64,000 nt of DNA, taken from a virus. Lineage: Duplodnaviria; Heunggongvirae; Uroviricota; Caudoviricetes. This document shows, piece by piece, positions 9,838 to 47,387 of this stretch (within the stretch, counting starts at the first letter, position 1; every line of letters begins with the position of its first letter). A model generated the notes under the pieces. That model saw only the letters and a list, made by a program, of their open reading frames with translations, did not search any database and was not told where the DNA came from. Location of the stretch: the IMG/VR virus record IMGVR_UViG_3300026737_000001. The stretch is one strand, 5' to 3'. The position numbers and the translations under genes were made by a program.

Positions 9838-10347
9838 ATGCCTAGCAGATTATTATTTGATAAAAGAAACAAAGAAATATTAAGGTGTCAGCCTGAACCC
9901 TTCGGTAGCGCAGGTCTTCCGAGTTTTGAAGCATTATGCAATTCTGCAAGGGTACCGCTTGATGAAATCCAATACATGAATACTATAGTTATAAACGAAG
10001 ATATACTTACAAGAGAGGCTAAATCAAATTTTTACTTAAGTGAAAATGATAATGGCAGTATTGTTCTGATAGAGAAGCCAGAAGCACTTATAGTTTTAGA
10101 AAATGAAATTATTAATATATCTGCCGATAATACAGCAACAATAAGAGTTTATTTAGACAATCTAAACTCTTATATAGATTATAGTTATGTAACACTTAAT
10201 ATTAACGGAGTTGAATTTAATGTAAAGATAGATATTAATACATATGAAGGCTTAAAGTATATAAAAATTGAAGAGGCAGGAGAGTATATAATATCAGGTA
10301 GTGATGACAGATTTAATATTAATGAAGTTATGATAAGTGCAGTTTAA
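9838..10347 (+). CDS. hypothetical structural/assembly protein
   Basis: ATG immediately after the preceding stop, so translationally coupled. Confidence 0.4.
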   Translation: MPSRLLFDKRNKEILRCQPEPFGSAGLPSFEALCNSARVPLDEIQYMNTIVINEDILTREAKSNFYLSENDNGSIVLIEKPEALIVLENEIINISADNTATIRVYLDNLNSYIDYSYVTLNINGVEFNVKIDINTYEGLKYIKIEEAGEYIISGSDDRFNINEVMISAV

Positions 10348-10371
10348 AACAAGAAATGGAGGTGTTGTTTT

Positions 10372-19817: not shown

Positions 19818-19852
19818 AAAAGCCGCCCTTAAAAGGACGGCTTCTTTTTTTA
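19818..19852. terminator. bidirectional rho-independent terminator between convergent gene blocks
   Basis: Hairpin 'AAAGCCGCCC-ttaaaa-GGACGGCTT' followed by a T-run on + and preceded by an A-run (T-run on -). Lies between the + gene ending at 19806 and the - gene ending at 19850. Confidence 0.6.
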
Positions 19853-20167
19853 TAGTAATGTTTTTATCTTTTTTAGAAATACCATAGCTGATTTATCCTG
19901 TTCTTCAACAATCTCTCCATTTTTAAACAATATAAGTTTCGGAAGTCCTTTTACGTTATACTCTTCAGCTAAAGCCTCAAAAGAGTCAACATCAACTGTG
20001 TAAATATCAAACTTATCAGCATACTGGGCCATTAACCTTCCTTTAAGTTGCTTACACTTTCCACACCATTTAGCGTAAAAATCAACCACAACATGTTTGT
20101 CCTGATTGATAAAGTCCTCGAATTCCTCTACAGTTGTAATCTCTATCATTAATTTAATTCCTCCCAT
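19850..20167 (-). CDS. thioredoxin with atypical CGKC active site
   Basis: 'VVDFYAKWCGKCKQL' is the Trx fold motif (WCGPC in canonical Trx). 105 aa. Confidence 0.7.
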   Translation of the reverse strand: MGGIKLMIEITTVEEFEDFINQDKHVVVDFYAKWCGKCKQLKGRLMAQYADKFDIYTVDVDSFEALAEEYNVKGLPKLILFKNGEIVEEQDKSAMVFLKKIKTLL

Positions 20168-20568
20168 TGTTTACTTTCACTATTAAAACTTTCTATTTTT
20201 AAATTACTATCACTCATCCAGGCATCAACTTCTTTTTCTAGTTTCTTTTTATAGTCATCAACACCCTTTAGAGCATAGCTTGTTTTAAGCTTATGCCATT
20301 TTTTAAATTCATCTGTCTTTACAAGTCTTTCAAGTGCAGCCTTTTTATTCTTAGCCTGAGTCCTGTGGTTTCTTGACTCGGCCACAGCCCCTGACTCTTT
20401 ATGTCTAATTCTGACACCAGTTTCTCGTGAGTTTTGGTTTTGTCCGCCCGGGCCACCAGAGCGAAAAGTCTCAATTTCTAAGTCGTTTTTAGTTACAGAA
20501 AATAGAAGCTCCTTACTCATTGTTGTCATCATCCTCTTTTTTATAGTTTCTGCATTTACCCTTCTCAT
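20149..20568 (-). CDS. ArfB/ICT1-like peptidyl-tRNA hydrolase (GGQ-domain ribosome rescue factor)
   Basis: 'FRSGGPGGQNQNSRETGVRIRHKESG' is the RF-1 domain GGQ motif. 139 aa with a basic C-terminal tail, like ArfB/YaeJ. Confidence 0.6.
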   Translation of the reverse strand: MRRVNAETIKKRMMTTMSKELLFSVTKNDLEIETFRSGGPGGQNQNSRETGVRIRHKESGAVAESRNHRTQAKNKKAALERLVKTDEFKKWHKLKTSYALKGVDDYKKKLEKEVDAWMSDSNLKIESFNSESKQWEELN

Positions 20569-20639
20569 CTAAAAAAACTTCATCTGTCCAGCATTCGCCT
20601 AAATCATGATATTCGCAATCAGATGCATCGCAATAAGCT

Positions 20640-20978
20640 CTAGGCATTATTATCACTCTTCAGGGCATAACCTAAAGCCTCATAAAAAGAGCAGCCACCA
20701 TTATAATACTTTGTTTCAAAGCTTATAGTTCCGTCATCGTTAAAATTAGATTCAAAGATATCATCATAATAAACATCTTCCATTTCAATCCGGTAGATAG
20801 TATCATCGATAACAGCAAACTTCTTGTAAGCAGCTTCCAAAAACTGTTCTTCTAAGCTGTCATAATAGCTTTTAACCTCTGTAATACCAGCTACATCTTT
20901 CATTTGTTCTTCAAGTGTCATACCTTCAGGCCTTGTCAAAGGCACTAACTGACCCTTAAAATGTACCATTTCACTCAT
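20640..20978 (-). CDS. hypothetical protein
   Basis: ORF in an operon-like array. Confidence 0.35.
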   Translation of the reverse strand: MSEMVHFKGQLVPLTRPEGMTLEEQMKDVAGITEVKSYYDSLEEQFLEAAYKKFAVIDDTIYRIEMEDVYYDDIFESNFNDDGTISFETKYYNGGCSFYEALGYALKSDNNA

Positions 20979-24977: not shown

Positions 24978-25709
24978 TCACCTTTCATTCTCTATAAATT
25001 TTATTAGTCTTTTTAAGTTTATAGGTTTTAATAATAAATTTTCTGCTGAAACACATTTGTGGAACTTAGATTTCTCTTCCTTAACACCATGTACATGTCC
25101 GTGAATGTTAATTATGTTGTGTGACTTAAAATAAAGCTCATCTTCTATACTCAATTCCATTGGTCTGTGAGTTAAAACGAAAGTGTAATCATTAACCATC
25201 AAGGTAAAACTGTCATATACTTCTTTAAACCCAAGCCTTTCAACGAGTTTTGTTCGTGATTGACCGTCGTGATTACCTCTAATGAGTATAATTTTGCCGT
25301 TTAAACGGTCCATAATCTCAAGCTGTCGTTTGGTGTTAGTAAGAAAGAAATCTCCTAGATGAAGCACTGTGTCATGTGGACAAACAGTATCATTCCACAT
25401 TTCAATCATGTATTCATCCATCTCTTCTGCTGTTAAAAAAGGTCTGTTCTCATATTCTATAATGTTATAATGGCCAAAATGGGTGTCAGCAATCAGATAT
25501 AGATTTTTAACACCCAAGATTGACTCAATTATCCTTTTTCCTCTTTCAATTTCTTCCATTGTTTTCTTTATGTTTGTTTTTCTTTTATTTATTTCTTCTG
25601 GTGTAGATTTATGATTTTCAGCTTCTTCTAAAAGTTCATAAAACCTATCAGCTGCTTTTTGCGACTTTATAACAATAGGCTCTGTAAATCTTTTTAAGTA
25701 ATCTTCCAT
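24978..25709 (-). CDS. calcineurin-like metallophosphoesterase
   Basis: 'IADTHFGH', 'LHLGDFF', 'IRGNHD', 'HGHVH' motifs. Confidence 0.65.
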   Translation of the reverse strand: MEDYLKRFTEPIVIKSQKAADRFYELLEEAENHKSTPEEINKRKTNIKKTMEEIERGKRIIESILGVKNLYLIADTHFGHYNIIEYENRPFLTAEEMDEYMIEMWNDTVCPHDTVLHLGDFFLTNTKRQLEIMDRLNGKIILIRGNHDGQSRTKLVERLGFKEVYDSFTLMVNDYTFVLTHRPMELSIEDELYFKSHNIINIHGHVHGVKEEKSKFHKCVSAENLLLKPINLKRLIKFIENER

Positions 25710-26963: not shown

Positions 26964-28085
26964 CTATCTTATACCTAAATCTAATTTGCCTTGTTTTAAA
27001 AGATTTTTACTAGCGTTTATATCCCTGTCGTGATTTGCACCACACTCACAAGTCCAAGTGCGAACTGATAAATCTTTGACTTTAGGATTTTTAGTACCAC
27101 ATTCTGAACAGGTTTGACTACTAGCAAAAAACCTATCTGCTTTGTGTAATATGCAATTATACCACTTGCTTTTGTATTCCAGCATTGTAGTAAACATATT
27201 CCAGGCACAATCAGAAATATGTTTTGCAAGTTTAGAATTTTTAAGCATACCTTTTACATTTAAGTCCTCTATGACTAAAAGTTGGTTCTCCTTTGTTAGA
27301 CTAGTTGACAGTTTATGCAAAAAGTCTTTACGAATATTTTTGATTTTTTCATGAACTTTAGCAATTTTCTTTTTAAGTTTATACCAATTGTTACTACCTT
27401 CTTCTTTACGAGCTAACCTTCTTTGTAATTTAGCAAGTTTATCTTGATATTTAGAAAGGTGCCTAGGATTTGAAATATGTTCACCATTAGAAGTAGTTAA
27501 AAAGTCTTTAATTCCTAAATCTAATCCTAATTCACATTGATTATCTTTAACAATAGTTACTAAGACTTGTTTAACATTAATTGATATATAATATTTACCT
27601 GCTCTAGATTTAGAAACTGTAACATTATTAATTTTACCTTTAACCTCTTTAGATTTAGCAAACTTAATCCAAGATAGTTTTGGTAGTTTAATCTTATTTT
27701 CTTTAATTTCAATATTTGTTGTACCACTAGGTCTAATGAATTTTTGTGTTCTATATGATAGCCTAGCTTTTCTTTTAGATTTAAACTTAGGATAATTATA
27801 TTTACCACTAAAGAAATTCTTAAAAGCTCTATCCAGGTCTTTAAGACTTTGCTGTAAAGCTATACTATCTACTTCTTTAAGCCACTCATATTCTTTTTTT
27901 AATTGAGGCAGTTGTCTGGAATATTTAGTATATGATTGATAATTTTCTTCTTTAGTTTTTGCTAAAAATTCGTTGTAAATGAATCTAGAACAACCAATAG
28001 TTTTATCAATTAATTCTTGTTGTTCTTGATTAGGATAAATTCTAAACTTATATGCTTTGTTAATTGGCTTAAATTTTTTAATCAT
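26964..28085 (-). CDS. tnpB: TnpB (IS605 OrfB-family RNA-guided nuclease/transposase accessory protein)
   Basis: N-terminal HTH 'YKFRIYPNQEQQELIDKTIGCSRFIYN', RuvC-like core, and C-terminal zinc finger 'CSECGTKNPKVKDLSVRTWTCECGANHDRDINASKN'. Confidence 0.85.
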   Translation of the reverse strand: MIKKFKPINKAYKFRIYPNQEQQELIDKTIGCSRFIYNEFLAKTKEENYQSYTKYSRQLPQLKKEYEWLKEVDSIALQQSLKDLDRAFKNFFSGKYNYPKFKSKRKARLSYRTQKFIRPSGTTNIEIKENKIKLPKLSWIKFAKSKEVKGKINNVTVSKSRAGKYYISINVKQVLVTIVKDNQCELGLDLGIKDFLTTSNGEHISNPRHLSKYQDKLAKLQRRLARKEEGSNNWYKLKKKIAKVHEKIKNIRKDFLHKLSTSLTKENQLLVIEDLNVKGMLKNSKLAKHISDCAWNMFTTMLEYKSKWYNCILHKADRFFASSQTCSECGTKNPKVKDLSVRTWTCECGANHDRDINASKNLLKQGKLDLGIR

Positions 28086-28474: not shown

Positions 28475-30154
28475 TTACTTTTTTTCCTGTGAACTCATTA
28501 CTGATTGTATCCATCTCCTCGTAGAAGCATTTTTTACAAAATCAACAAATAAAGGGTGTGGCCTCAAAGGTCTTGACTTAAACTCCGGATGAAACTGCAC
28601 ACCAACAAACCATCTGTGTTCTTTAAGCTCCATTGTTTCAACAAGCTTTCCGTCCGGTGATAGACCTGAGAATACAACCCCGTTAGCTTCAAATAACTTT
28701 CTGTAATCATTGTTAAACTCAAAGCGGTGACGATGCCTTTCTTTTAATTCTAAATGGTCGATGTAGGCGCTGTGAACTCTTGACTTTAAAGGCTTTGCTG
28801 TAAAATCATAAGAGCCAAGCCTCATTGTTCCGCCCTTGTTAACAACCTCTCTCTGCTCATTCATGAGGGTTATTACAGGGTTTTTAGTTTCACTGTCAAA
28901 CTCTAAGCTGTTGGCATCTTCTAGTCCTAACTCATTTCTGGCAAATTCAATAGCTGCAACCTGCATGCCAAGACAAATACCAAAGTAAGGGACCTTATTT
29001 TCTCTTGCATATTTAGCCGCCTTTATCTTGCCTTCAATGCCTCTCTCACCAAATCCACCAGGGACTAATATTCCATCATATCCTTTTAATGTTATTCTAA
29101 CTGCTTCATCACAGCTTAAATCTTCAAGCTCTTGAGAGTCAATAAATGTAATATCAACATCGAGATGATTTTTAAGACCTGCATGTATTAAAGCCTCTTT
29201 GATGCTGAGATATGCATCTTCGAGCTGTGTATATTTTCCCACAACTGCTATATTTACCTTTTCTTTTTTTTCTTGTAAATTTACAAGCATATGCCCCCAG
29301 TCATCTATATCTTGAGGATAACTCTGAAATGATTTAAAACCAAGTTTCTCCATTACCTTTTTAGCCATATCCTGACCTTCATATTTGAGAGGTATTTCAT
29401 AAATGTGCTCTACATCAACTGACTCAAATATTAATTCCTTGTCTATATCTCCAAATAAAGAAATCTTATCCCTTATTTCTTCAGGCATTTTATCTTTAAT
29501 TCTGCCGACTACAGCATCAGGCTGAACGCCAAGACTTCTAAGCTCCTTTAAGCTCTGCTGGGTAGGTTTTGATTTGTACTCTCCTACTTTATGCATGTAA
29601 GGAATTAATGTGCAGTGAACATGGAATGTGTTATCAAAACCTAAATCATGTCTTAACTGCCTTACAGCCTCCACAAAAGGGAAGCTTTCAATATCTCCTA
29701 CAGTGCCCCCGAGTTCAATTAGTATCACATCAGTCTTATCGTCTTCCGGCATGGTCATCCTGCGCTTTATCTCATCAGTGATATGAGGTATTACCTGTAT
29801 TGTCTTACCTAAGTATTTGCCTTTTCTTTCGTTATCTAAAACTTCCTGATAGATTTGACCTGTTGAGACAGAATTAATTCCAGAAAGCTCTATATCAATA
29901 AACCTTTCATAGTGGCCAAGGTCTAAATCAGTTTCTGCTCCATCATTGGTAACAAAAACCTCTCCGTGTTCTATAGGGTTCATTGTCCCAGCATCAACAT
30001 TTATATAGGGGTCAAATTTCTGAACCTTAATATTTAACCCTCTAGCTTTAAGTAACATTCCAAGCGATGCAGAAGTTAACCCCTTTCCTAATCCAGAGAC
30101 AACCCCTCCTGTCACGAATATATATTTAGTTTTCTTACTCACACTCATCAACAC
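28475..30154 (-). CDS. pyrG: CTP synthase
   Basis: Full-length 559 aa. 'KYIFVTGGVVSGLGKG' at the N-terminus, glutaminase-domain 'GICLGMQ' and 'GGTMRLG'. Confidence 0.9.
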   Translation of the reverse strand: MLMSVSKKTKYIFVTGGVVSGLGKGLTSASLGMLLKARGLNIKVQKFDPYINVDAGTMNPIEHGEVFVTNDGAETDLDLGHYERFIDIELSGINSVSTGQIYQEVLDNERKGKYLGKTIQVIPHITDEIKRRMTMPEDDKTDVILIELGGTVGDIESFPFVEAVRQLRHDLGFDNTFHVHCTLIPYMHKVGEYKSKPTQQSLKELRSLGVQPDAVVGRIKDKMPEEIRDKISLFGDIDKELIFESVDVEHIYEIPLKYEGQDMAKKVMEKLGFKSFQSYPQDIDDWGHMLVNLQEKKEKVNIAVVGKYTQLEDAYLSIKEALIHAGLKNHLDVDITFIDSQELEDLSCDEAVRITLKGYDGILVPGGFGERGIEGKIKAAKYARENKVPYFGICLGMQVAAIEFARNELGLEDANSLEFDSETKNPVITLMNEQREVVNKGGTMRLGSYDFTAKPLKSRVHSAYIDHLELKERHRHRFEFNNDYRKLFEANGVVFSGLSPDGKLVETMELKEHRWFVGVQFHPEFKSRPLRPHPLFVDFVKNASTRRWIQSVMSSQEKK

Positions 30155-38107: not shown

Positions 38108-39182
38108 CTAATTAGCTTTCTTAAAGAAATCTCCTTCAATCAATTTAACTTTATCAACCAGCATTGCATTACTTTTATCTTTTTTACCTTCAAGTTTTAA
38201 TTTAAAACCTTTTTGAAATAAGTCATGATTGGAGCGATATGTGTCCGGAAAAACTACAAGTTTAATCTTATTTTTATCTGTTTTAACTTTTGCAAAAGCC
38301 ATTAATTTATTTGACTTTCTGGTTTTAACCTCTTTAGATTCTGTAATTATGCCTTCCACCTCTAAGACCTCTCCGCTTTTAGCAAAATCCCATTCAGAAG
38401 GATAGGTTAAAGATAAACCGATTGTGTCCATTTCGAATTCAATAATTTCTTCTTTTGTGGGTTCTGGTTCGTCAAAAACTCCAGAACCTTCCTCATTTTT
38501 GAAGGCATCAAATAGTGACTGCCTCATCTGTCCAAACTCTTTAATAGTCTTGTAATCTACAAGTAATTGTTTTCTGTTTTTGCCGAATGAATCCATTGCC
38601 CCAGCTTTAATTAAAGATTCAAAAGCTGTCTTATTAACAACTCTTGTATCAACCTTCTGGTACATATCATCTAGGTCTTTAAACGGTCTTTGATTCATTA
38701 TTTCGGTGCTTGCTTTTTTACCTAAACCATCAATCGCATTTAAACCCAGTCTTATCTTCCCGTTAACAGCTGTAAAGCGCCCTTCTGACTCGTTAATGTC
38801 AGGAGGTAGTATATCTATCTTCTTTTTATAGCAGTCCGAGAAATAGTCCGTAATCGAGCTGTCAGAGCCACTCTTTGCTGCTTCAACACTCATGATAGCT
38901 GCATAGAACTCTGCCGGAAAATGGTATTTAAGGTAAGCAGTGGCATAAGATATTAATGCATAGCAAGCAGAATGTGATTTATTAAAGCCATAGCCGGCAA
39001 AATATTCGATTAATCTAAACATTTCATCAGCAAATTCTTCTGTGTGGCCATTTTCTTTAGCTCCTGCTTTAAACTTAACTTTCATTTTTTCTAATACTTT
39101 TATTTTCTTTTTTCCCATTCCACGCCTTAATATATCTGCCTCTCCCAGGCTGAAGTTAGCAATTATCTGTGCAGTTTTCATT
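38108..39182 (-). CDS. dnaE: DNA polymerase III alpha subunit DnaE, exon 3 (C-terminal part)
   Basis: '(V)MKTAQIIANFSLGEADILRRGMGKKK' corresponds to DnaE 'YQEQVMQIAQ...LGEADLLRRAMGKKK'. The codon is completed by splicing (see intron). Confidence 0.85.
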
Positions 39183-40758
39183 CAATTATGTTATCGCAAA
39201 AGCTTTTTATCTTCTGCTTCTATATCTGCTATCTTTACAAATATAGTTCGGCATACATTTTCACCTTATTTAAGGTGTCGAACACTCGTGGAGAGATTAT
39301 ATTTTACATATAAATGTAAGTTCACTCTCTATGCTCTACGGTATTAACAGATTTTTAGGTCTATTAATTACCTCGGTATTATCACATATAATATCCATTC
39401 TTTTTCTTTTTCTTGGTAGCCAAATATTAGCATCTTTGTACATGTATTTATATAGCTTTTTAGAAAATGATATACCACTTTGAAAGTAATATAGATTAGT
39501 ACTTTTATGGATTGTTTTATTGCTTTTTATTACCTTTTGTATAGATTTAAGCATTTTTTTATTTCCACAAAACCCACTTCTCTTACTTTTTTTGATGCAA
39601 GTTATGCCATCTCCATCAAAAAACCCTCTAATAAAGTGTCTATACATATTATCAGGTATTTGAAAGGGAAATGATTCTTTTCCCGTCTTATTAGGTATAA
39701 CACCATATTCAAATAATTTTTCAGTCATATGTCTTGATGTTAAGCTACATCTGCAACAGTAACCTTTTTTTGAATATCCAGAATTTTTACCAACATAAGG
39801 ATTAAGAGAACTTTCTAAGTGGCTTAAAAACCCATAAATAATCTCTTTGTCCTTTAAGGCTACACCTAATTTTATAGAATATTGACCATTATAGATAGAA
39901 GTGTTTCCATCAGCCATTAAAAAACCCAAAAAATAAGCTTTTTCTTCTTTGTTTATTTTATCAAAAAAATCTTCTTTTTTTATGCTATTCTCTAATCCTC
40001 TTTTTATATCAAAACCTTCTTTCTTTAACCATAATGAAATAGTGTTTCTATTAATACCTGTTTCAGTTGCTATTTCACATAAATATAATCCTGATTTATA
40101 AAGATTAACAACTCTTTTTTTATAAACATCTTTATATCCTATTTTATCCCCATGATTAAATTTTGAATTTTTTGTTAGTCCAGCATTTCTTAAATATTTA
40201 TACACTGTACCAACACTTATATTCAATAATTTTGATATTTCTTTTCCAAACTTACCTTCATTATAAAGGTCCATTATTTTTTTGATTTTATATTCACTTA
40301 TTTTTTCAGTTTTTTTAGATTTTTGTGGATTTTGTAAACTTATATCAGATTCATTAATCCATTTATAAATTGTACTTCTGCAAGGCATAATTTCCATTTT
40401 AGAAATATCAGTAACAGAAATGCCATCGCCATACATGTTTAATGCTTTTATTTTGCGTTGACTACTTTTCATCTTTATCACCTTCTACATATTGAAAGAG
40501 TATATACCTAACCATTTCAGAAAAATTAATTCCTTTTTTGTCAGCTATTTTTTGAATGTCTTCTTCCAGCTGTTCCGGTAAATAAATATTTCTTCTTTTC
40601 ATTTTTATCATCTCCAACGTGTGGTATTTGTATCACCTTGCATACATTATTATAACACACATTGAATCATTTTTCAAATTATGGATATTTAGATAGTGGC
40701 TTCACCGATTTTGCTCGATAATAATCTAGCTTATTTCTAAGCTGGACGGCAATTTCTT
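39183..40758 (-). other. group I-like intron in dnaE (intron 2), 1576 nt, carrying a LAGLIDADG HEG
   Basis: Exon 2 ends '...CAGGU' (U before the 5' splice site). The intron ends '...AATTG' (terminal G). Joining gives CAG GTA ATG = Q-V-M, restoring the conserved DnaE YQEQVM. A stop codon follows the exon 2 junction in frame. Confidence 0.7.
39336..40481 (-). CDS. LAGLIDADG homing endonuclease (double-motif) with N-terminal HTH modules, intron-encoded
   Basis: 'YFLGFLMADGNTS' and 'FIRGFFDGDGITC'. Confidence 0.8.
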   Translation of the reverse strand: MIKMKSSQRKIKALNMYGDGISVTDISKMEIMPCRSTIYKWINESDISLQNPQKSKKTEKISEYKIKKIMDLYNEGKFGKEISKLLNISVGTVYKYLRNAGLTKNSKFNHGDKIGYKDVYKKRVVNLYKSGLYLCEIATETGINRNTISLWLKKEGFDIKRGLENSIKKEDFFDKINKEEKAYFLGFLMADGNTSIYNGQYSIKLGVALKDKEIIYGFLSHLESSLNPYVGKNSGYSKKGYCCRCSLTSRHMTEKLFEYGVIPNKTGKESFPFQIPDNMYRHFIRGFFDGDGITCIKKSKRSGFCGNKKMLKSIQKVIKSNKTIHKSTNLYYFQSGISFSKKLYKYMYKDANIWLPRKRKRMDIICDNTEVINRPKNLLIP

Positions 40759-42710
40759 ACCTGTTCCTGGTATACTAGGTAACCGTATGTTTCCTCTAAT
40801 TCCTTTTTTAAACTTTCGTGTGGATATTCTACTTTTTCATTACCGTGCATTCTGTCGAAATATTTTTCCACAATACCAGCTTCAAGTGGTCCCGGGCGAC
40901 CGAGAGCAAGTATAGCAATTATATGCTCGAACTTTGTAGGTTTCATTTTCTTTAACAGCCTTTTAAATAGTTGTGATTCTACCTGAAAAACCCCGTTGGT
41001 ATCAGCCTTCTGATAGATGTTTTTATATACATCTTTATCATCAAGAGGTAAATCCCAAATGTTTTGTACTGTAGGCTTATACTCTAAGCTATCATAATCT
41101 TTTCTGTTCTTGATAAACTTAATAGCCTCACCTATGATAACAACAGTCTTTAACCCTAAGAAATCCATCTTGAGCAAACCTAAATCTTCGCTATCGTGCA
41201 TCTCTGTCTGAGTTACATATGTTATCTCACCAGTCTGGCTGTTTTTGGTTCGTGCTAAAGGTGTGTAATCATCAACAGGCTCTGGAGTAATAACAACTGC
41301 TGAGGCATGTGTACCTAACTGTCTAGGCTTACCTTCTAGCTTTTGAGCTATATCGAATAGTTTTGGATACTGTTCAGCATACATCTTAAGTTCTTTACTT
41401 TCTTCCAGTGCTTCCTTGATTGAAATACCTGGGGTATCGGGAAATGCCTTTGATATCTCTTTATTCATTAGATTGTAATCATATCCTAATACTCGGCCTA
41501 CATCTTTAACAGCTGATTTAGCACCTAGTGTACCAAAGTTACAGATACTTGCTACATTTTCTTCTCCGTATTTGTCGATTACATACTGGATAACTTTTCC
41601 TCTATTTCCAAAATCTATATCAATATCAGGCATAGCAGTTCTTTCAGGATTTAAGAATCTTTCAAACAGCAGTCCATACTTAACAGGGTCTAAGGCTGTG
41701 ATGCCTAAAAGATAGGATAGAAGTGAGCCTGCTGCAGACCCTCGACCAGGACCAACAATGATGTTATTATCTTTAGCCCACTGAACATAATCTTCAACAA
41801 TTAAAAAGTAGGCAGGATACCCCTTCATATTTATAACCTCAAGCTCTGTATCAAGCCGTCTGGCGTATTTATCCATATCAATGTCTTTTTCTACAGCCAA
41901 CTCAAAAAGCTTCTTAAAGGCCCTTTCTTCAAGGTATGACTCAAGTGTATAACCTTCAGGAACTTCGAACTTAGGAAGGAGTAAATTACCTAAATCAAGC
42001 TCGACTGTATCACATTTATCGGCAATTTTTACTGTATTCTCAACTGCACTATCTCTGGCATCTATAAAATCAGACTCTACACTTTTTGCAAAAAGCTGAC
42101 TTTTTATCTCATCTTCACCCTTAAAATAGTATGAATCTCCATGAAATCTAAATCTGTCATTATCTTCAACTTTTGCCCCTGTTTGAATACATAGCATAAC
42201 GTCATGAGCTTCTATACTGTCCTTTTCTAGATAGTGCATATCTGATGTAGCTACAAGCTCTATATCTAATTTTCTAGCTAAATTTGCAAGCTTTGAGTTC
42301 ATTACGTACTGCTCTGATACATCGTTGGCCATAATCTCTATATAGAAATCATCACCAAAAAGTTTTTTATATTTTAGAGCTATTTCTTCTGCTCTTTCAT
42401 TGTTGTTATTCTCTAAGGCTCTTGGTATCTCTCCTGCAAGGCAGGCAGAACTTACTATAAGTCCTTCAGAATGCTCTTTTAAAATTTCAAAATCTATTCT
42501 TGGTTTATAATAAAAACCTTCTGTATTTGACTTACTCACCATCTTAAAAATATTATCCAATCCTTTTTTATTTTTAGCAAGGATTATAAGGTGGTGTCTT
42601 TTACCTTCTTTATCATGCATGTCATTAGCTACATATACTTCAATTCCAAATATATGTTTAATTTCTTCTTCTTTGGCTGCTTTATAAAGCTCTACGAAAT
42701 TATGGATACT
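40759..42710 (-). CDS. dnaE: DNA polymerase III alpha subunit DnaE, exon 2 (PHP remainder plus polymerase core)
   Basis: 'GPGRGSAAGSLLSYLLGIT', 'FLGLKT', ends 'GYLVYQEQV'. Confidence 0.85.
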
Positions 42711-43840
42711 CAATTGTGTTATCCTACAAGTTTTTTACCATGTAGTTCTTGCAGTTCATTTCCTGCAAGTTCAGCATACCTTTTGCCCACCAGCATTACC
42801 TGTGAGGACAGGAGTCTCTTGGAAAAATTATATTCTTTAATACAAATTAAAGTTTCATTTTCTATGCGTTGCCCCTGACTAATATTTTAAAATTAGCCTT
42901 CGGTTCGGATTGGCTTCTCAGCTTTCCCGCTTAATACTCCTGTAATAATTCTAAACATTCCTGTTTAGAACGGCAAATTTATCATGTTTTCTCTTTAAAT
43001 ATATATTAGCATCTTTATATAGGTAGTCTTTAATTTTCAAAACAGCAAGCCTTCCTGACTTTCTTATTTTGTACATATCAGATTTATGAAATTTTGGTTT
43101 TTGCATAAATATATCATTTTTTTCAAACTCATCAGATATTTCATTTAGCATATCTTTATAGCCCATTATATAAAATTCACAATTTAAAGAGTTCTTGTGA
43201 TGGTTATCATTTCTTATTGAATATGATATACATCCATCACCGTCAAAGTAACCTCTTATAAAATGATTCATATATTCTTCTTTTATATTTGGTAATGAGT
43301 TTGTGTTTTTTACACCTAGTTTTATTAAGTCTTGATATATTTTTTTATTGGTAAAAGACAGAGTATATTGTCCAATATTACTATATCTATCCTTTCTTGG
43401 TTTAATGTAATATAATGGACCTGCATAACCAACTTCATTTTTTACATCTAAAAGAAGTTTTTTATCATCTTCTTTTAAACCAATAGAGGCCACATAACTT
43501 CTTCCTGAAATATATACGCTTCCATCTGAATAAAATAATCCTAATATATAGGCTTTCTCTTTAGAATTTATTTCAGAAAAATATTTTTGATTTATTTTAT
43601 ATTGTGGTTGACCTCCTGGATTTCTTGATTTTATATTATACTCTTTGAAAGTCGTTTGTATTTTTGAAGCACTTACATTAAAATATTTTCCTATATCTTT
43701 ATGACTTAAACCATCATTATAAAGATTTTTCATTTCATTAATTTGTTTTGTAGAAAAAATAATTTTTTTAGTAATTTTTATCACCCTCTTTAGCTTAAAG
43801 GTGCTAATATATTTATAATTATAACATGATATTAATGTTT
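42711..43840 (-). other. group I-like intron in dnaE (intron 1), 1130 nt, carrying a LAGLIDADG HEG
   Basis: Exon 1 ends '...GAC CAC GGU' and the intron ends '...CACAATTG'. Joining gives 'TDHG|SIHNFVELYKAAK', collinear without gaps with Firmicute DnaE 'TDHGNMFGAIEFYKAAK'. Confidence 0.65.
42951..43784 (-). CDS. LAGLIDADG homing endonuclease, intron-encoded (paralog of 39336..40481)
   Basis: 'YILGLFYSDGSVY' and 'FIRGYFDGDGCIS'. The N-terminal HTH resembles the other HEG. Confidence 0.8.
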   Translation of the reverse strand: MIKITKKIIFSTKQINEMKNLYNDGLSHKDIGKYFNVSASKIQTTFKEYNIKSRNPGGQPQYKINQKYFSEINSKEKAYILGLFYSDGSVYISGRSYVASIGLKEDDKKLLLDVKNEVGYAGPLYYIKPRKDRYSNIGQYTLSFTNKKIYQDLIKLGVKNTNSLPNIKEEYMNHFIRGYFDGDGCISYSIRNDNHHKNSLNCEFYIMGYKDMLNEISDEFEKNDIFMQKPKFHKSDMYKIRKSGRLAVLKIKDYLYKDANIYLKRKHDKFAVLNRNV

Positions 43841-44131: not shown

Positions 44132-44485
44132 CTACTTGTGCCAAGGCTTAAAGTCTTTAACTTTATTAATTAACTCTTTATTCCATTTACCCCCAAAATT
44201 AATTGCTCTATCATCAATTTGCACTATAGCTGGTACTTTATCTCTAACTACTTTATCTACTTCAATATCATATTTATCTAAATAATCTTCGATAGCTTCA
44301 ATTCCGCCTTCTTGGTGGCACCTGGAAGAATGGACAACTACTTCATAATCTTTCCTTAATTCCTGAATAGCTTCGTTTACACCTTCAACCGGAGAATCTG
44401 GTATATTAGTAACTCCTTGCCAACCAGACTTATAGCTGTGAATAACACCGTCAAAATCTAAAATAATTGTTTTCTTGCCTGACAT
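44132..44485 (-). CDS. HAD-superfamily phosphatase-like protein (paralog of 24617..24973)
   Basis: 'KKTIILDFDGVIH' motif I. Confidence 0.4.
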   Translation of the reverse strand: MSGKKTIILDFDGVIHSYKSGWQGVTNIPDSPVEGVNEAIQELRKDYEVVVHSSRCHQEGGIEAIEDYLDKYDIEVDKVVRDKVPAIVQIDDRAINFGGKWNKELINKVKDFKPWHK

Positions 44486-46199: not shown

Positions 46200-47387
46200 T
46201 TATTTTTTATATTTTTCTTTTATTAAAAATGAGACCTGTATCCCGATTCCTATTAATGCTGCAAGTCCTACACCGCTAAATTTATAAACTGTTATTCCAC
46301 TTAGTCCAAAAACTATCATCGTAGAAGCTATAAATGTATTCTTTGGACTTGTGAAATCGACTTTATTTGAAACAAAAGTTTTAAAGCCTAGAGTTGCTAT
46401 ATTACCAAAAAGAATAATCATAACTCCTCCAACAACAGCTGTTGGTATTGACTGCAGAAAAGCTGCTAATACACCTACAAAGCTAAATATAATTGCAAAT
46501 ATACCTGCATTTCTTGTAACTTTTGGGTCTCTTATCTTTAATAGACTAACTGCTGATGTTCCTTCTGAGTAAGTTGTATTTGGTACAGAGCCTACAAAAG
46601 AAAGCATTGTGCCTATTCCATCAATTAACATCGTCCTGTGCATCCCTGGTGACTTATAATACTTATTACCAGTTGCTTCACTTACTGCAAATACATCACC
46701 AAAATGCTCTATTGTTGGAGCTAAGGCAAATGGCAGTATGTAAATTGCTGCGCTTAAATTAAATCTTGGGAGTGTAAATTCAGGCATGCTTACTAGTGGT
46801 AGAGAAACAAATGTTACCTCTCCTAGAAGCAAAGCTGATATATATCCTGTTAAAATAGCTATCAAAACTGAATATAATCTTGTTACTCCTTCTGTAAACA
46901 TCATAAAATATCCTGCTGTAGATAATGTTATAATAGCTAAAAGCCAATTACCTGAAGCCATATCTATACCGGTATCTATCAGGGTCAACCCTATCAGCAT
47001 AATCATTGTTCCTGAGATTACTGGAGGGAAAAGTTTTTCTGAGATGAAGTCACTGCCTGTTTTTTTAATTACAAATGAAAATAAAACTTTCATAATTCCC
47101 GCAACACCTAATGCAAAGAAAACAGATGGCATATCCCATCTATCCTGTATATAAATTATTGGTGCTATATAGGCAAATGATGAGCCTAGAAAAATTATTG
47201 GTGCTCCATATTCACCTCTACCAAAATAATGCATGATAAGAGTCGATATACCTGCTGTAAATAAAACAATAGATGTTGAGATACCCGTCAAAAGTGGTAC
47301 CAAAATCGTAGCGCCAAAGCAGACTACAAGCATCTGTAAACCTAAAAGCCATGTGTTATTTCCAATATTGAAATTCTCTGATTTCAT
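46200..47387 (-). CDS. NCS2-family nucleobase (uracil/xanthine) permease
   Basis: N-terminus 'LQMLVVCFGATILVPLLTG...LFTAGISTLIMH...IFLGSSFAYIAPII' parallels UraA/PyrP. Twelve or more TM segments. Confidence 0.6.
   Translation of the reverse strand: MKSENFNIGNNTWLLGLQMLVVCFGATILVPLLTGISTSIVLFTAGISTLIMHYFGRGEYGAPIIFLGSSFAYIAPIIYIQDRWDMPSVFFALGVAGIMKVLFSFVIKKTGSDFISEKLFPPVISGTMIMLIGLTLIDTGIDMASGNWLLAIITLSTAGYFMMFTEGVTRLYSVLIAILTGYISALLLGEVTFVSLPLVSMPEFTLPRFNLSAAIYILPFALAPTIEHFGDVFAVSEATGNKYYKSPGMHRTMLIDGIGTMLSFVGSVPNTTYSEGTSAVSLLKIRDPKVTRNAGIFAIIFSFVGVLAAFLQSIPTAVVGGVMIILFGNIATLGFKTFVSNKVDFTSPKNTFIASTMIVFGLSGITVYKFSGVGLAALIGIGIQVSFLIKEKYKK

What the first reader, a model, noticed from the sequence alone, without database searches (positions are those of the whole stretch)
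20149..20568. Phage-encoded ArfB/ICT1-like GGQ peptidyl-tRNA hydrolase
A 139-aa protein with the 'GGPGGQNQNSRETGVRIRHKESG' release-factor GGQ domain and a basic C-terminal tail, which is the ArfB architecture. A ribosome-rescue factor in a phage suggests a counter-measure to host defenses or toxins that cleave mRNA or tRNA and stall ribosomes, for example anticodon nucleases or RelE-type toxins.
Basis: partly seen in the sequence, partly recalled or inferred. Interest (0 to 1): 0.6.

Follow-up and report, generated by a model that had tools for sequence, protein, structure and literature searches.

The report
Phage stand-alone GGQ release-factor-like protein
A large phage carries a small protein that is essentially the catalytic "GGQ" piece of a bacterial release factor plus a phage-specific tail; it belongs to a widespread, already annotated but untested phage family that probably frees stalled ribosomes, and it is not built like ArfB.

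Summary
The ORF at 20149-20568 (minus strand) is real. It contains an intact GGQ release-factor domain (Pfam RF-1, E=1.6e-18, above the cut-off). The likely start is M17 at nt 20520, which gives 123 aa.

The "ArfB architecture" is not there:
- The C-terminal 56 aa have net charge 0, against +13 for the E. coli ArfB tail.
- The ArfB tail motif is absent.
- The NCBIfam ArfB score is 37, against a cut-off of 100.
- AlphaFold predicts a folded helix-helix-hairpin module. It has no detectable homology to RF1, RF2, PrfH or ArfB beyond residue about 67.

The protein is a full-length member of a phage family, PHROG 3122 "RF-1 domain peptide chain release factor". That family appears in 241 GenBank phage records, at least 202 IMG/VR contigs and 123 clusters at 50% identity. 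It was nearly absent from the bacterial species genomes scanned.

Relatives often sit in or beside phage tRNA arrays, with tmRNA, PTH2-type hydrolase or RtcB. This window has none of these; its neighbour is a thioredoxin.

Best reading: a codon-independent, ribosome-dependent peptidyl-tRNA hydrolase that maintains translation during infection, with a recognition mode unlike ArfB's. This is a new member of a known but uncharacterised family, of moderate interest.

The parts
20149..20520 (-). Most likely CDS of the stand-alone GGQ protein (123 aa, start M17). The maximal ORF extends to 20568 (139 aa).
   Evidence: ORF list. Homologues start at this Met (A1). SD-like AAGAGGA 11 nt upstream, and overlap with the upstream stop codon. 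Full-length PHROG 3122 hit, E=7e-25.
20320..20502 (-). GGQ (bacterial release-factor peptidyl-hydrolase) domain, residues 7-67 of the 123-aa form. The GGQ codons are at 20440-20448.
20152..20319 (-). Family-specific C-terminal module, residues 68-123. Predicted helix 70-84, helix 90-101 and beta-hairpin 110-121. Conserved F72, W75, N106 and E110. Net charge 0.
   Evidence: AlphaFold2 model, pLDDT 89.5. Conservation table. No homology to RF1, RF2, PrfH or ArfB beyond residue about 67-69. Charge analysis.
20513..20656 (-). Upstream 47-aa Cys-rich ORF whose stop overlaps the M17 start of the GGQ gene (probable translational coupling). Function unknown.
   Evidence: No Pfam or PHROG hit. Weakly conserved only in the closest relatives, L009 and L010.
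19850..20149 (-). Thioredoxin gene directly downstream. Its ATG overlaps the GGQ gene's TAA (TAATG), and a GGAGG site lies inside the GGQ gene's end.
   Evidence: Pfam Thioredoxin E=1e-23. Sequence. The same arrangement occurs only in the closest relative, L010.
19818..19845 (-). Terminator-like hairpin (12 bp, 6 GC, then a T run) that ends the minus-strand transcription unit just after thioredoxin.

Best explanation
The gene encodes a member of a phage-specific family of stand-alone GGQ proteins (PHROG 3122, annotated as 'RF-1 domain peptide chain release factor').

Proposed mechanism:
1. The N-terminal 67 residues are a release-factor domain-3-type GGQ domain. It would enter the empty A site of the large ribosomal subunit and hydrolyse the peptidyl-tRNA ester bond without reading a codon.
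2. The roughly 50-residue family-specific C-terminal module (two helices and a hairpin, invariant Trp75) would provide ribosome binding and substrate selection. It would replace RF domains 2/4 or ArfB's basic tail.
3. The purpose is to release and recycle ribosomes that stall during infection. Stalls could come from cleaved or depleted tRNAs, cleaved or degraded mRNAs, or read-through. This keeps translation capacity available for the phage.

Shown: domain identity, intact catalytic motif, fold, family membership, restriction to phages, and the association of relatives with tRNA, tmRNA, PTH2 and RtcB genes. Inferred: hydrolase activity, codon independence, the role of the C-terminal module, and the kind of stall that is rescued.
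For: - The GGQ domain scores above the Pfam cut-off, and GGQ is invariant in 54 homologues.
- The AF2 model has pLDDT 89.5. Its best structural matches are RF1, RF2 and mtRF1 domain 3 and PrfH on ribosomes.
- At 123 aa, with only about 6 residues before the domain, no codon-reading domain is possible.
- The family is large and phage-borne: 241 GenBank phage records, 202 IMG/VR contigs, and 123 clusters at 50% identity with E<=1e-30, all short among the 150 listed.
- Only 1-2 full-length relatives appeared among the hits kept from 185,579 bacterial species genomes.
- Of 74 non-redundant loci, 27 have tRNAs within 10 kb and 16 within 1 kb. Random placement predicts 10.1 within 1 kb, P about 0.009.
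- tmRNA is present in L006, L040, L074 and L088. A PTH2-type hydrolase is present in about 7 loci and RtcB in 3.
- In Mycobacterium phage prophiT49-2 the gene lies inside the tRNA array, next to tmRNA, RtcB and a peptidyl-tRNA hydrolase.
- The literature already proposes phage tRNAs and PTH2 as answers to ribosome jamming by anticodon nucleases (PMC7824862, PMC9503650, PMC10264068).
Against: - No biochemical data exist for any member; none was found in 7 literature searches.
- In this window there is no tRNA, tmRNA, RtcB or Pth. The immediate neighbours are thioredoxin and small unknown ORFs.
- 47 of 74 loci show no tRNA within 10 kb, so the association is partial.
- No conserved protein partner was found.
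- How a neutral, folded C-terminal module would tell stalled ribosomes from elongating ones is unknown. An unregulated codon-independent release factor could be harmful.
Confidence: 0.55

Rival explanations
1. True ArfB-type rescue. The C-terminal region threads into the empty mRNA channel of the 30S subunit, so the protein acts specifically on non-stop ribosomes stalled at the 3' ends of cleaved mRNAs.
For: It is a stand-alone GGQ domain of ArfB-like size (123 aa against 140 aa). There is a weak ArfB model hit. Helix 70-84 carries conserved K73, K77 and K79.
Against: - The tail has net charge 0, against +13 for ArfB.
- The ArfB tail residues needed for activity (PMC3950681) are absent in 54 of 54 members. 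They are present in the classical ArfBs recovered here, e.g. L147.
- The ArfB equivalog score is 37, against a cut-off of 100.
- The C-terminus is predicted to be folded.
- No homology to ArfB tails was detected.
Confidence: 0.1
2. mtRF-R (C12orf65)-like action. The protein hydrolyses peptidyl-tRNA trapped on split 50S subunits, as an RQC-type end step, possibly with a host or phage partner.
Against: The long alignment to C12orf65 runs through a charged helical region and may not reflect homology. No S4/MTRES1-like partner gene is conserved next to the family. The C12orf65 extension is positively charged, whereas this one is neutral.
Confidence: 0.12
3. A termination or recoding accessory. The protein modulates termination or deals with read-through in phages that use suppressor tRNAs or reassigned stop codons.
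For: The closest long-contig relatives carry an amber-suppressor tRNA(CUA) 1-2 kb downstream (L002, L011, L012; also L076). L033 carries tRNA(UUA).
Against: The protein has no codon-recognition domain. The window shows no recoding: coding density is 0.905 with the standard code, the gain is negligible if TAG is read as sense, and a 2100-aa ORF is intact. No suppressor tRNA is present in the window. Most family loci lack suppressor tRNAs.
Confidence: 0.06
4. A non-catalytic role. The protein acts as an A-site blocker that shuts off host translation, or as a decoy for a host factor such as the PrmC methyltransferase or a defence sensor. Alternatively it is a decaying fragment of a captured release-factor gene.
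For: Phages commonly encode small ribosome-binding proteins (PMC10914614). BFVD contains phage GGQ mini-proteins as short as 64-83 aa.
Against: Strict invariance of GGQ and of the surrounding PTC-contacting residues across a diverse family points to selection for catalysis. The conserved full-length architecture in hundreds of phages argues against a decaying fragment.
Confidence: 0.07

Closest known systems
Phage 'RF-1 domain peptide chain release factor' family (PHROG 3122), e.g. Mycobacterium phage Bxz1 gp200, prophiT49-2 gp135, Tunturiibacter phage Tunturi_4 gp53
   Same: Same length class and the same GGQ domain. The same C-terminal module is conserved within the metagenomic subfamily (F72/W75 and the NLKIE motif). 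The PHROG profile matches across the full length (E=7e-25). Identity to these phage proteins is 40-48% over 80-98% of the length.
   Different: This member comes from a low-GC phage, probably of Clostridia, with no close DNA relative in GenBank. It lies next to thioredoxin rather than in a tRNA array or next to a DNA polymerase.
ArfB (YaeJ) / ICT1
   Same: Stand-alone GGQ domain of similar size, with no codon-recognition domain. Presumably codon-independent.
   Different: No alpha-i insertion. No basic tail and no R118/L119/K122/K129/R132-type motif. Scores below the ArfB model cut-off. ArfB is the weakest of the GGQ-family matches in PDB sequence and fold searches.
Class I release factors RF1/RF2 (domain 3)
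   Different: Lacks domains 1, 2 and 4, so it has no PxT/SPF codon reader. Homology stops at residue about 67.
PrfH (works with RtcB2 on ribotoxin-damaged ribosomes)
   Different: No PrfH N-terminal (domain 2/4-like) part. TIGR03072 scores 50.8 against a cut-off of 166.65. No RtcB in this window.
mtRF-R (C12orf65)
   Same: GGQ domain without the alpha-i insertion, followed by a helical C-terminal extension. Profile match E=1.2e-9 over nearly the full length.
   Different: The extension here is neutral and ends in a beta-hairpin. No MTRES1-like partner was found. The host setting is bacterial/phage, not mitochondrial.

Membership tests
Bacterial release-factor GGQ domain (Pfam RF-1, PF00472) | Profile score above the curated gathering threshold | tested here: met
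   67.2 bits against a cut-off of 35, E=1.6e-18.
Bacterial release-factor GGQ domain (Pfam RF-1, PF00472) | Intact catalytic GGQ motif and the surrounding conserved residues | tested here: met
   GGPGGQNQN at residues 22-30. G26 and Q27 are invariant, G25 is in 98%, and R37, H40, S43, G44, R50 and N58 are invariant in 54 homologues.
Bacterial release-factor GGQ domain (Pfam RF-1, PF00472) | Domain-3 fold | tested here: met
Phage RF-1-domain family (PHROG 3122) | Full-length profile match and shared C-terminal module | tested here: met
   E=7.3e-25, protein 14-126 against profile 16-120 of 136. The conserved F72/W75 and NLKIE motif is shared with homologues.
Phage RF-1-domain family (PHROG 3122) | Carried by phage genomes | tested here: met
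   The window is phage. Relatives occur in 241 GenBank phage records and 202 IMG/VR contigs. They are nearly absent from the bacterial species genomes scanned.
ArfB / YaeJ / ICT1 | Score above the NCBIfam ArfB equivalog cut-off (NF006718) | tested here: not met
   37.1 bits against 100, and only aa 23-57 of the 139-aa form match.
ArfB / YaeJ / ICT1 | Basic C-terminal tail with the conserved residues required for activity (E. coli R118, L119, K122, K129, R132; PMC3950681) | tested here: not met
   Tail net charge 0 against +13. The motif is absent in 54 of 54 family members, and present in E. coli ArfB and in the classical ArfBs L110-L147.
ArfB / YaeJ / ICT1 | Peptidyl-tRNA hydrolysis on non-stop ribosomes with an empty mRNA channel | not testable with these tools
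   Needs an in vitro release assay or ssrA/arfA complementation.
PrfH | N-terminal domain 2/4-like part that recognises the damaged decoding centre; TIGR03072 cut-off | tested here: not met
   Only about 6 residues precede the GGQ domain. 50.8 bits against 166.65.
PrfH | Operon partner RtcB ligase | tested here: not met
   No RtcB was found among the window ORFs scanned (the BLAST found RtcB only in L006, L029 and L070).
Class I release factors RF1/RF2 | Codon-recognition domains 2/4 (PxT or SPF) and domain 1; equivalog cut-offs | tested here: not met
   The protein is 123 aa. prfB scores 64 against 370, and prfA scores 58 against 400. Homology is limited to domain 3.
mtRF-R (C12orf65) | GGQ domain without alpha-i, a positively charged C-terminal helical extension, and an S4-like partner (MTRES1) | tested here: inconclusive
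   The alpha-i-less GGQ domain is met. The profile alignment spans the full length at E=1.2e-9. However, the extension is neutral, and no conserved partner was found in 74 neighbourhoods.

The most novel reading that the evidence does not exclude
The family's conserved, neutral, folded C-terminal module (invariant Trp75, NLKIE hairpin) is a previously undescribed way of recognising stalled ribosomes. It would let phages release ribosomes jammed by host anticodon nucleases or mRNA-cleaving defences, including ribosomes that still hold mRNA in the A site, which ArfB handles poorly. The protein would then act as a counter-defence factor alongside phage tRNA arrays, tmRNA, PTH2 and RtcB.
Probability: 0.3. 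Interest if true: 0.7.

Novelty: new member of a known kind. Interest (0 to 1): 0.35.

Why it matters
Phage answers to translation-targeting defences (anticodon nucleases, Cas13, PARIS, retrons, toxin RNases) are an active topic. Phage tRNAs, RNA ligases and PTH2 have been discussed, but the stand-alone GGQ family has only been annotated, not studied. It is common in large phages, nearly absent from the cellular genomes scanned, and has a C-terminal module unlike any characterised rescue factor. If it is a rescue factor, it would add a fourth architecture for GGQ-based rescue, after ArfB/ICT1, PrfH and mtRF-R, and a new phage counter-defence component. For this window on its own the finding is an ordinary new member of that family.

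Tried and rejected
1. ArfB architecture: rejected on charge, motif, model score and predicted fold.
2. My own idea that the C-terminal 'NLKIE' strand is a remnant of the RF1/RF2 strand after helix alpha-7 (RIRTYNF): hhalign finds no homology beyond residue about 67-69 to RF1, RF2, PrfH or classical ArfB. Dropped.
3. Stop-codon recoding in this phage: coding density is 0.905 with the standard code, and reassigning TAG, TGA or TAA gives no meaningful gain. Rejected for the window.
4. A conserved protein partner: clustering ORFs within 6 kb in 74 loci gave no general partner. The most frequent family was a metallophosphoesterase in 13 loci, at variable distance and size, probably replication-module background.
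5. A functional link to thioredoxin: the pairing exists only in the closest relatives. Probably lineage-specific.
6. PTH2, RtcB, tRNA or tmRNA in the window: none.
7. Affiliation of the GGQ domain with one cellular class: it is about equally distant (46-51% identity) from RF1, RF2, PrfH and alpha-i-less ArfB domains. Those comparison sequences were selected by a pattern resembling the family, so identities are biased upward.
8. The afdb50 fold library was unavailable.
9. PHROG and Pfam scans of the other genes in the operon gave nothing informative.
10. Literature searches found no functional study of the phage family.

Full report
**Observation**

The minus strand of the window carries an ORF at 20149-20568 (139 aa). 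Its translation contains GGPGGQNQNSRETGVRIRHKESG. The GGQ codons are at 20440-20448.

Domain searches gave these results:
- Pfam RF-1 (PF00472) matches at E=1.6e-18, 67.2 bits against a gathering cut-off of 35.
- PHROGs gives a full-length hit to phrog_3122, 'RF-1 domain peptide chain release factor', at E=7.3e-25.
- NCBIfam models for RF2, RF1 and PrfH hit the same about 60 residues at 51-64 bits. The ArfB equivalog reaches only 37 bits against a cut-off of 100, over aa 23-57.

The real start is most likely M17, the ATG at 20520. Homologues begin there, AAGAGGA lies 11 nt upstream, and this ATG overlaps the stop of a 47-aa Cys-rich ORF. The protein is then 123 aa.

**Setting**

The window is part of a large low-GC (about 32%) phage.
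- The plus strand up to about 19.8 kb carries structural genes.
- The minus strand from 19.85 kb carries a replication and nucleotide-metabolism block. It includes a Pol III alpha-like polymerase interrupted by LAGLIDADG ORFs, RecJ, CTP synthase, NrdD/NrdG, guanylate and thymidylate kinases, dCTP deaminase, a sigma factor, RuvC and a DnaB-like helicase.
- The nearest cultured relative by polymerase is Moorella phage MTATph1, at 50% aa identity. There is no near DNA match in GenBank phages.

The GGQ gene is the second-to-last gene of the minus-strand unit. A thioredoxin gene (PF00085, 1e-23) follows with a TAATG overlap, and then a strong terminator-like hairpin at 19818-19845. The 64 kb contain no tRNA, tmRNA, Rfam family, RtcB or Pth.

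**Anatomy**

An alignment of 54 homologues (A1) shows an invariant GGQ core: F19 G22 G23 G26 Q27 Q29 N30 R37 H40 S43 G44 R50 N58 A62. It also shows a conserved C-terminal part with F72, invariant W75, and N106 and E110 in an 'NLKIE' motif. Everything after about residue 112 is variable.

AlphaFold2 on this alignment gives a confident model (pLDDT 89.5). It has three strands and a helix for the GGQ domain, then helices 70-84 and 90-101, then a hairpin at 110-121.

Structural and sequence comparisons with solved structures agree:
- Sequence and profile searches of PDB chains give the same order: RF1 8e-16, PrfH 2e-12, C12orf65 1e-9, ArfB 1.5e-4 over profile positions 14-40 only.

I then used real RF1, RF2, PrfH and alpha-i-less ('classical') ArfB sequences recovered from bacterial genomes. 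hhalign shows that homology to all four classes ends at residue about 67-69. The GGQ domain is about equally distant from all of them, at 46-51% identity. That comparison set was selected by a family-like pattern, so it is biased upward.

**Why it is not ArfB**

- E. coli ArfB (sequence read from NC_000913.3) has a 48-residue tail with 17 K/R and 4 D/E, net +13.
- The 56 residues after the GGQ helix here have 12 K/R and 12 D/E, net 0. The last 30 residues are -5. The family median is 0.
- The tail residues shown to be required for YaeJ activity are R118, L119, K122, K129 and R132 (PMC3950681). They form the pattern R-L-x2-K-x6-K-x2-R.
- That pattern is found in E. coli ArfB and can be read in the classical ArfB tails printed, but in none of the 54 family members.
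- The alpha-i insertion of class 1 ArfB/ICT1 is absent.

**The family**

- tblastn finds relatives in 241 GenBank phage records. Most are Mycobacterium phages annotated 'RF-1 peptide chain release factor', for example Bxz1 gp200.
- A pattern scan of IMG/VR gives 202 viral contigs.
- A full HMM search of 1.84 billion representatives gives 123 clusters at 50% identity with E<=1e-30. The 150 best are all 82-216 aa.
- A scan of one genome per bacterial species returned essentially only host RF1, RF2, PrfH and ArfB genes matching the GGQ domain. One clear full-length relative appeared, in Peptococcaceae bacterium CEB3, and one possible one.
- BFVD shows further phage GGQ mini-proteins of 64-194 aa.

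Burroughs and Aravind's survey of release-factor evolution does not mention phages (PMC6514570). Morgado and Vicente noted an RF-1-domain gene, Pth and tmRNA in mycobacterial and phage tRNA arrays (PMC5966550). I found no functional study.

**Context of relatives**

I dereplicated the loci at 90% identity, giving 74 loci including the window.
- 27 have at least one tRNA within the fetched flanks, 16 have one within 1 kb, and 12 within 300 bp.
- Random placement inside the tRNA-bearing loci predicts 10.1 within 1 kb and 6.9 within 300 bp, P about 0.009 and 0.013.
- Several genes sit inside arrays of 11-34 tRNAs: L025, L040, L054, L061, L063, L074, L075, L082 and L088.
- tmRNA genes occur in L006, L040, L074 and L088.
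- In prophiT49-2 the order is tmRNA, tRNA array, RF-1 gene, tRNA, RtcB-like ligase, peptidyl-tRNA hydrolase.
- PTH2-type hydrolases lie within 10 kb in about 7 loci and RtcB in 3.
- The closest long-contig relatives (L011 at 66%, L012 at 60%, L002) have a PTH2-like gene directly followed by an amber-suppressor tRNA(CUA), 0.6-1.8 kb downstream.
- No protein partner is general. 47 of 74 loci, and this window, show no tRNA nearby.

**Interpretation**

The invariant catalytic motif, the release-factor domain-3 fold and the absence of any codon reader make a ribosome-dependent, codon-independent peptidyl-tRNA hydrolase the most likely activity.

Three observations support a role in keeping ribosomes available during infection. 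The family is restricted to phages. It recurs next to tRNA arrays, tmRNA, PTH2 and RtcB. And there is an existing argument that phages counter ribosome 'jamming' by anticodon nucleases with tRNAs, ligases and PTH2 (PMC7824862, PMC9503650, PMC10264068).

Which stalls are rescued, and how the neutral folded C-terminal module selects them, is inferred and open. Rivals are:
- ArfB-type sensing of non-stop ribosomes, which is poorly supported;
- mtRF-R-like action on split 50S subunits;
- a role tied to suppressor tRNAs, although there is no recoding in this window;
- a non-catalytic blocker or decoy, which is unlikely given GGQ invariance.

**Verdict**

This is a new member of a known, annotated but experimentally uncharacterised phage family. 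Interest is moderate (0.35). The family as a whole deserves biochemical study because its ribosome-recognition module is unlike ArfB, PrfH or mtRF-R.

Noticed in passing
L002 7662-8135; L011 8586-9059; L012 10152-10627; L076 16983-17359: A 100-129-aa PTH2-like peptidyl-tRNA hydrolase gene is immediately followed (within about 10 nt) by an amber-suppressor tRNA (anticodon CUA) in four related phage contigs. These also carry the GGQ gene 0.6-7.7 kb away. This looks like a conserved PTH2-suppressor tRNA pair. L033 has an ochre tRNA(UUA).
   Followed up: partly
window 38108-43784 (minus strand): The Pol III alpha-like DNA polymerase appears split. The N-terminal part is at 40737-42713 and the C-terminal part (finger, HHH_6, OB) at 38108-39181. 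LAGLIDADG/HTH ORFs sit at 39336-40481 and 42951-43784, suggesting homing-endonuclease, intron or intein interruption.
   Followed up: no
window 26964-28085 (minus strand): A 373-aa transposase (phrog_506, E=5e-132) lies inside the phage replication and nucleotide-metabolism block. It is a mobile element resident in a phage genome.
   Followed up: no
window 46200-47387 (minus strand): A xanthine/uracil permease family transporter (PF00860, E=1e-65) is encoded by the phage. It sits among NrdD, NrdG-like radical SAM, guanylate kinase and, further along, CTP synthase (28475-30154). This is an unusually complete nucleotide-supply set, including a membrane importer.
   Followed up: no
L032 10001-10348: The GGQ-family gene in this IMG/VR contig matches over residues 1-112 by tblastn, but the open ORF covers only 10181-10348. 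The cause could be an in-frame stop, a frameshift or a recoded codon.
   Followed up: no
window 44132-44485 (minus strand): A 117-aa protein gives a weak hit to HAD_SAK_2, the HAD domain of 'Swiss Army Knife' RNA-repair proteins (E=2e-5, 25.4 bits, just below the cut-off of 27.5). It is the only hint of an RNA-repair-type gene in the window.
   Followed up: no
L110, L120, L136, L147 (bacterial MAG contigs): These contigs carry 115-127-aa stand-alone GGQ proteins from Thermoleophilia, Gemmatimonadota and Longimicrobiales. They lack the alpha-i insertion and have strongly basic tails carrying the ArfB R-L-x2-K-x6-K-x2-R motif. They are examples of the 'classical ArfB' type and were useful as a contrast to the phage family.
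   Followed up: partly
window 24978-25709 and 13 of 74 related loci: A calcineurin-like metallophosphoesterase lies within 0-4.4 kb of the GGQ gene in 13 non-redundant loci, including the window. Sizes range from 168 to 790 aa. This could be replication-module background or an RNA-end-healing enzyme.
   Followed up: partly
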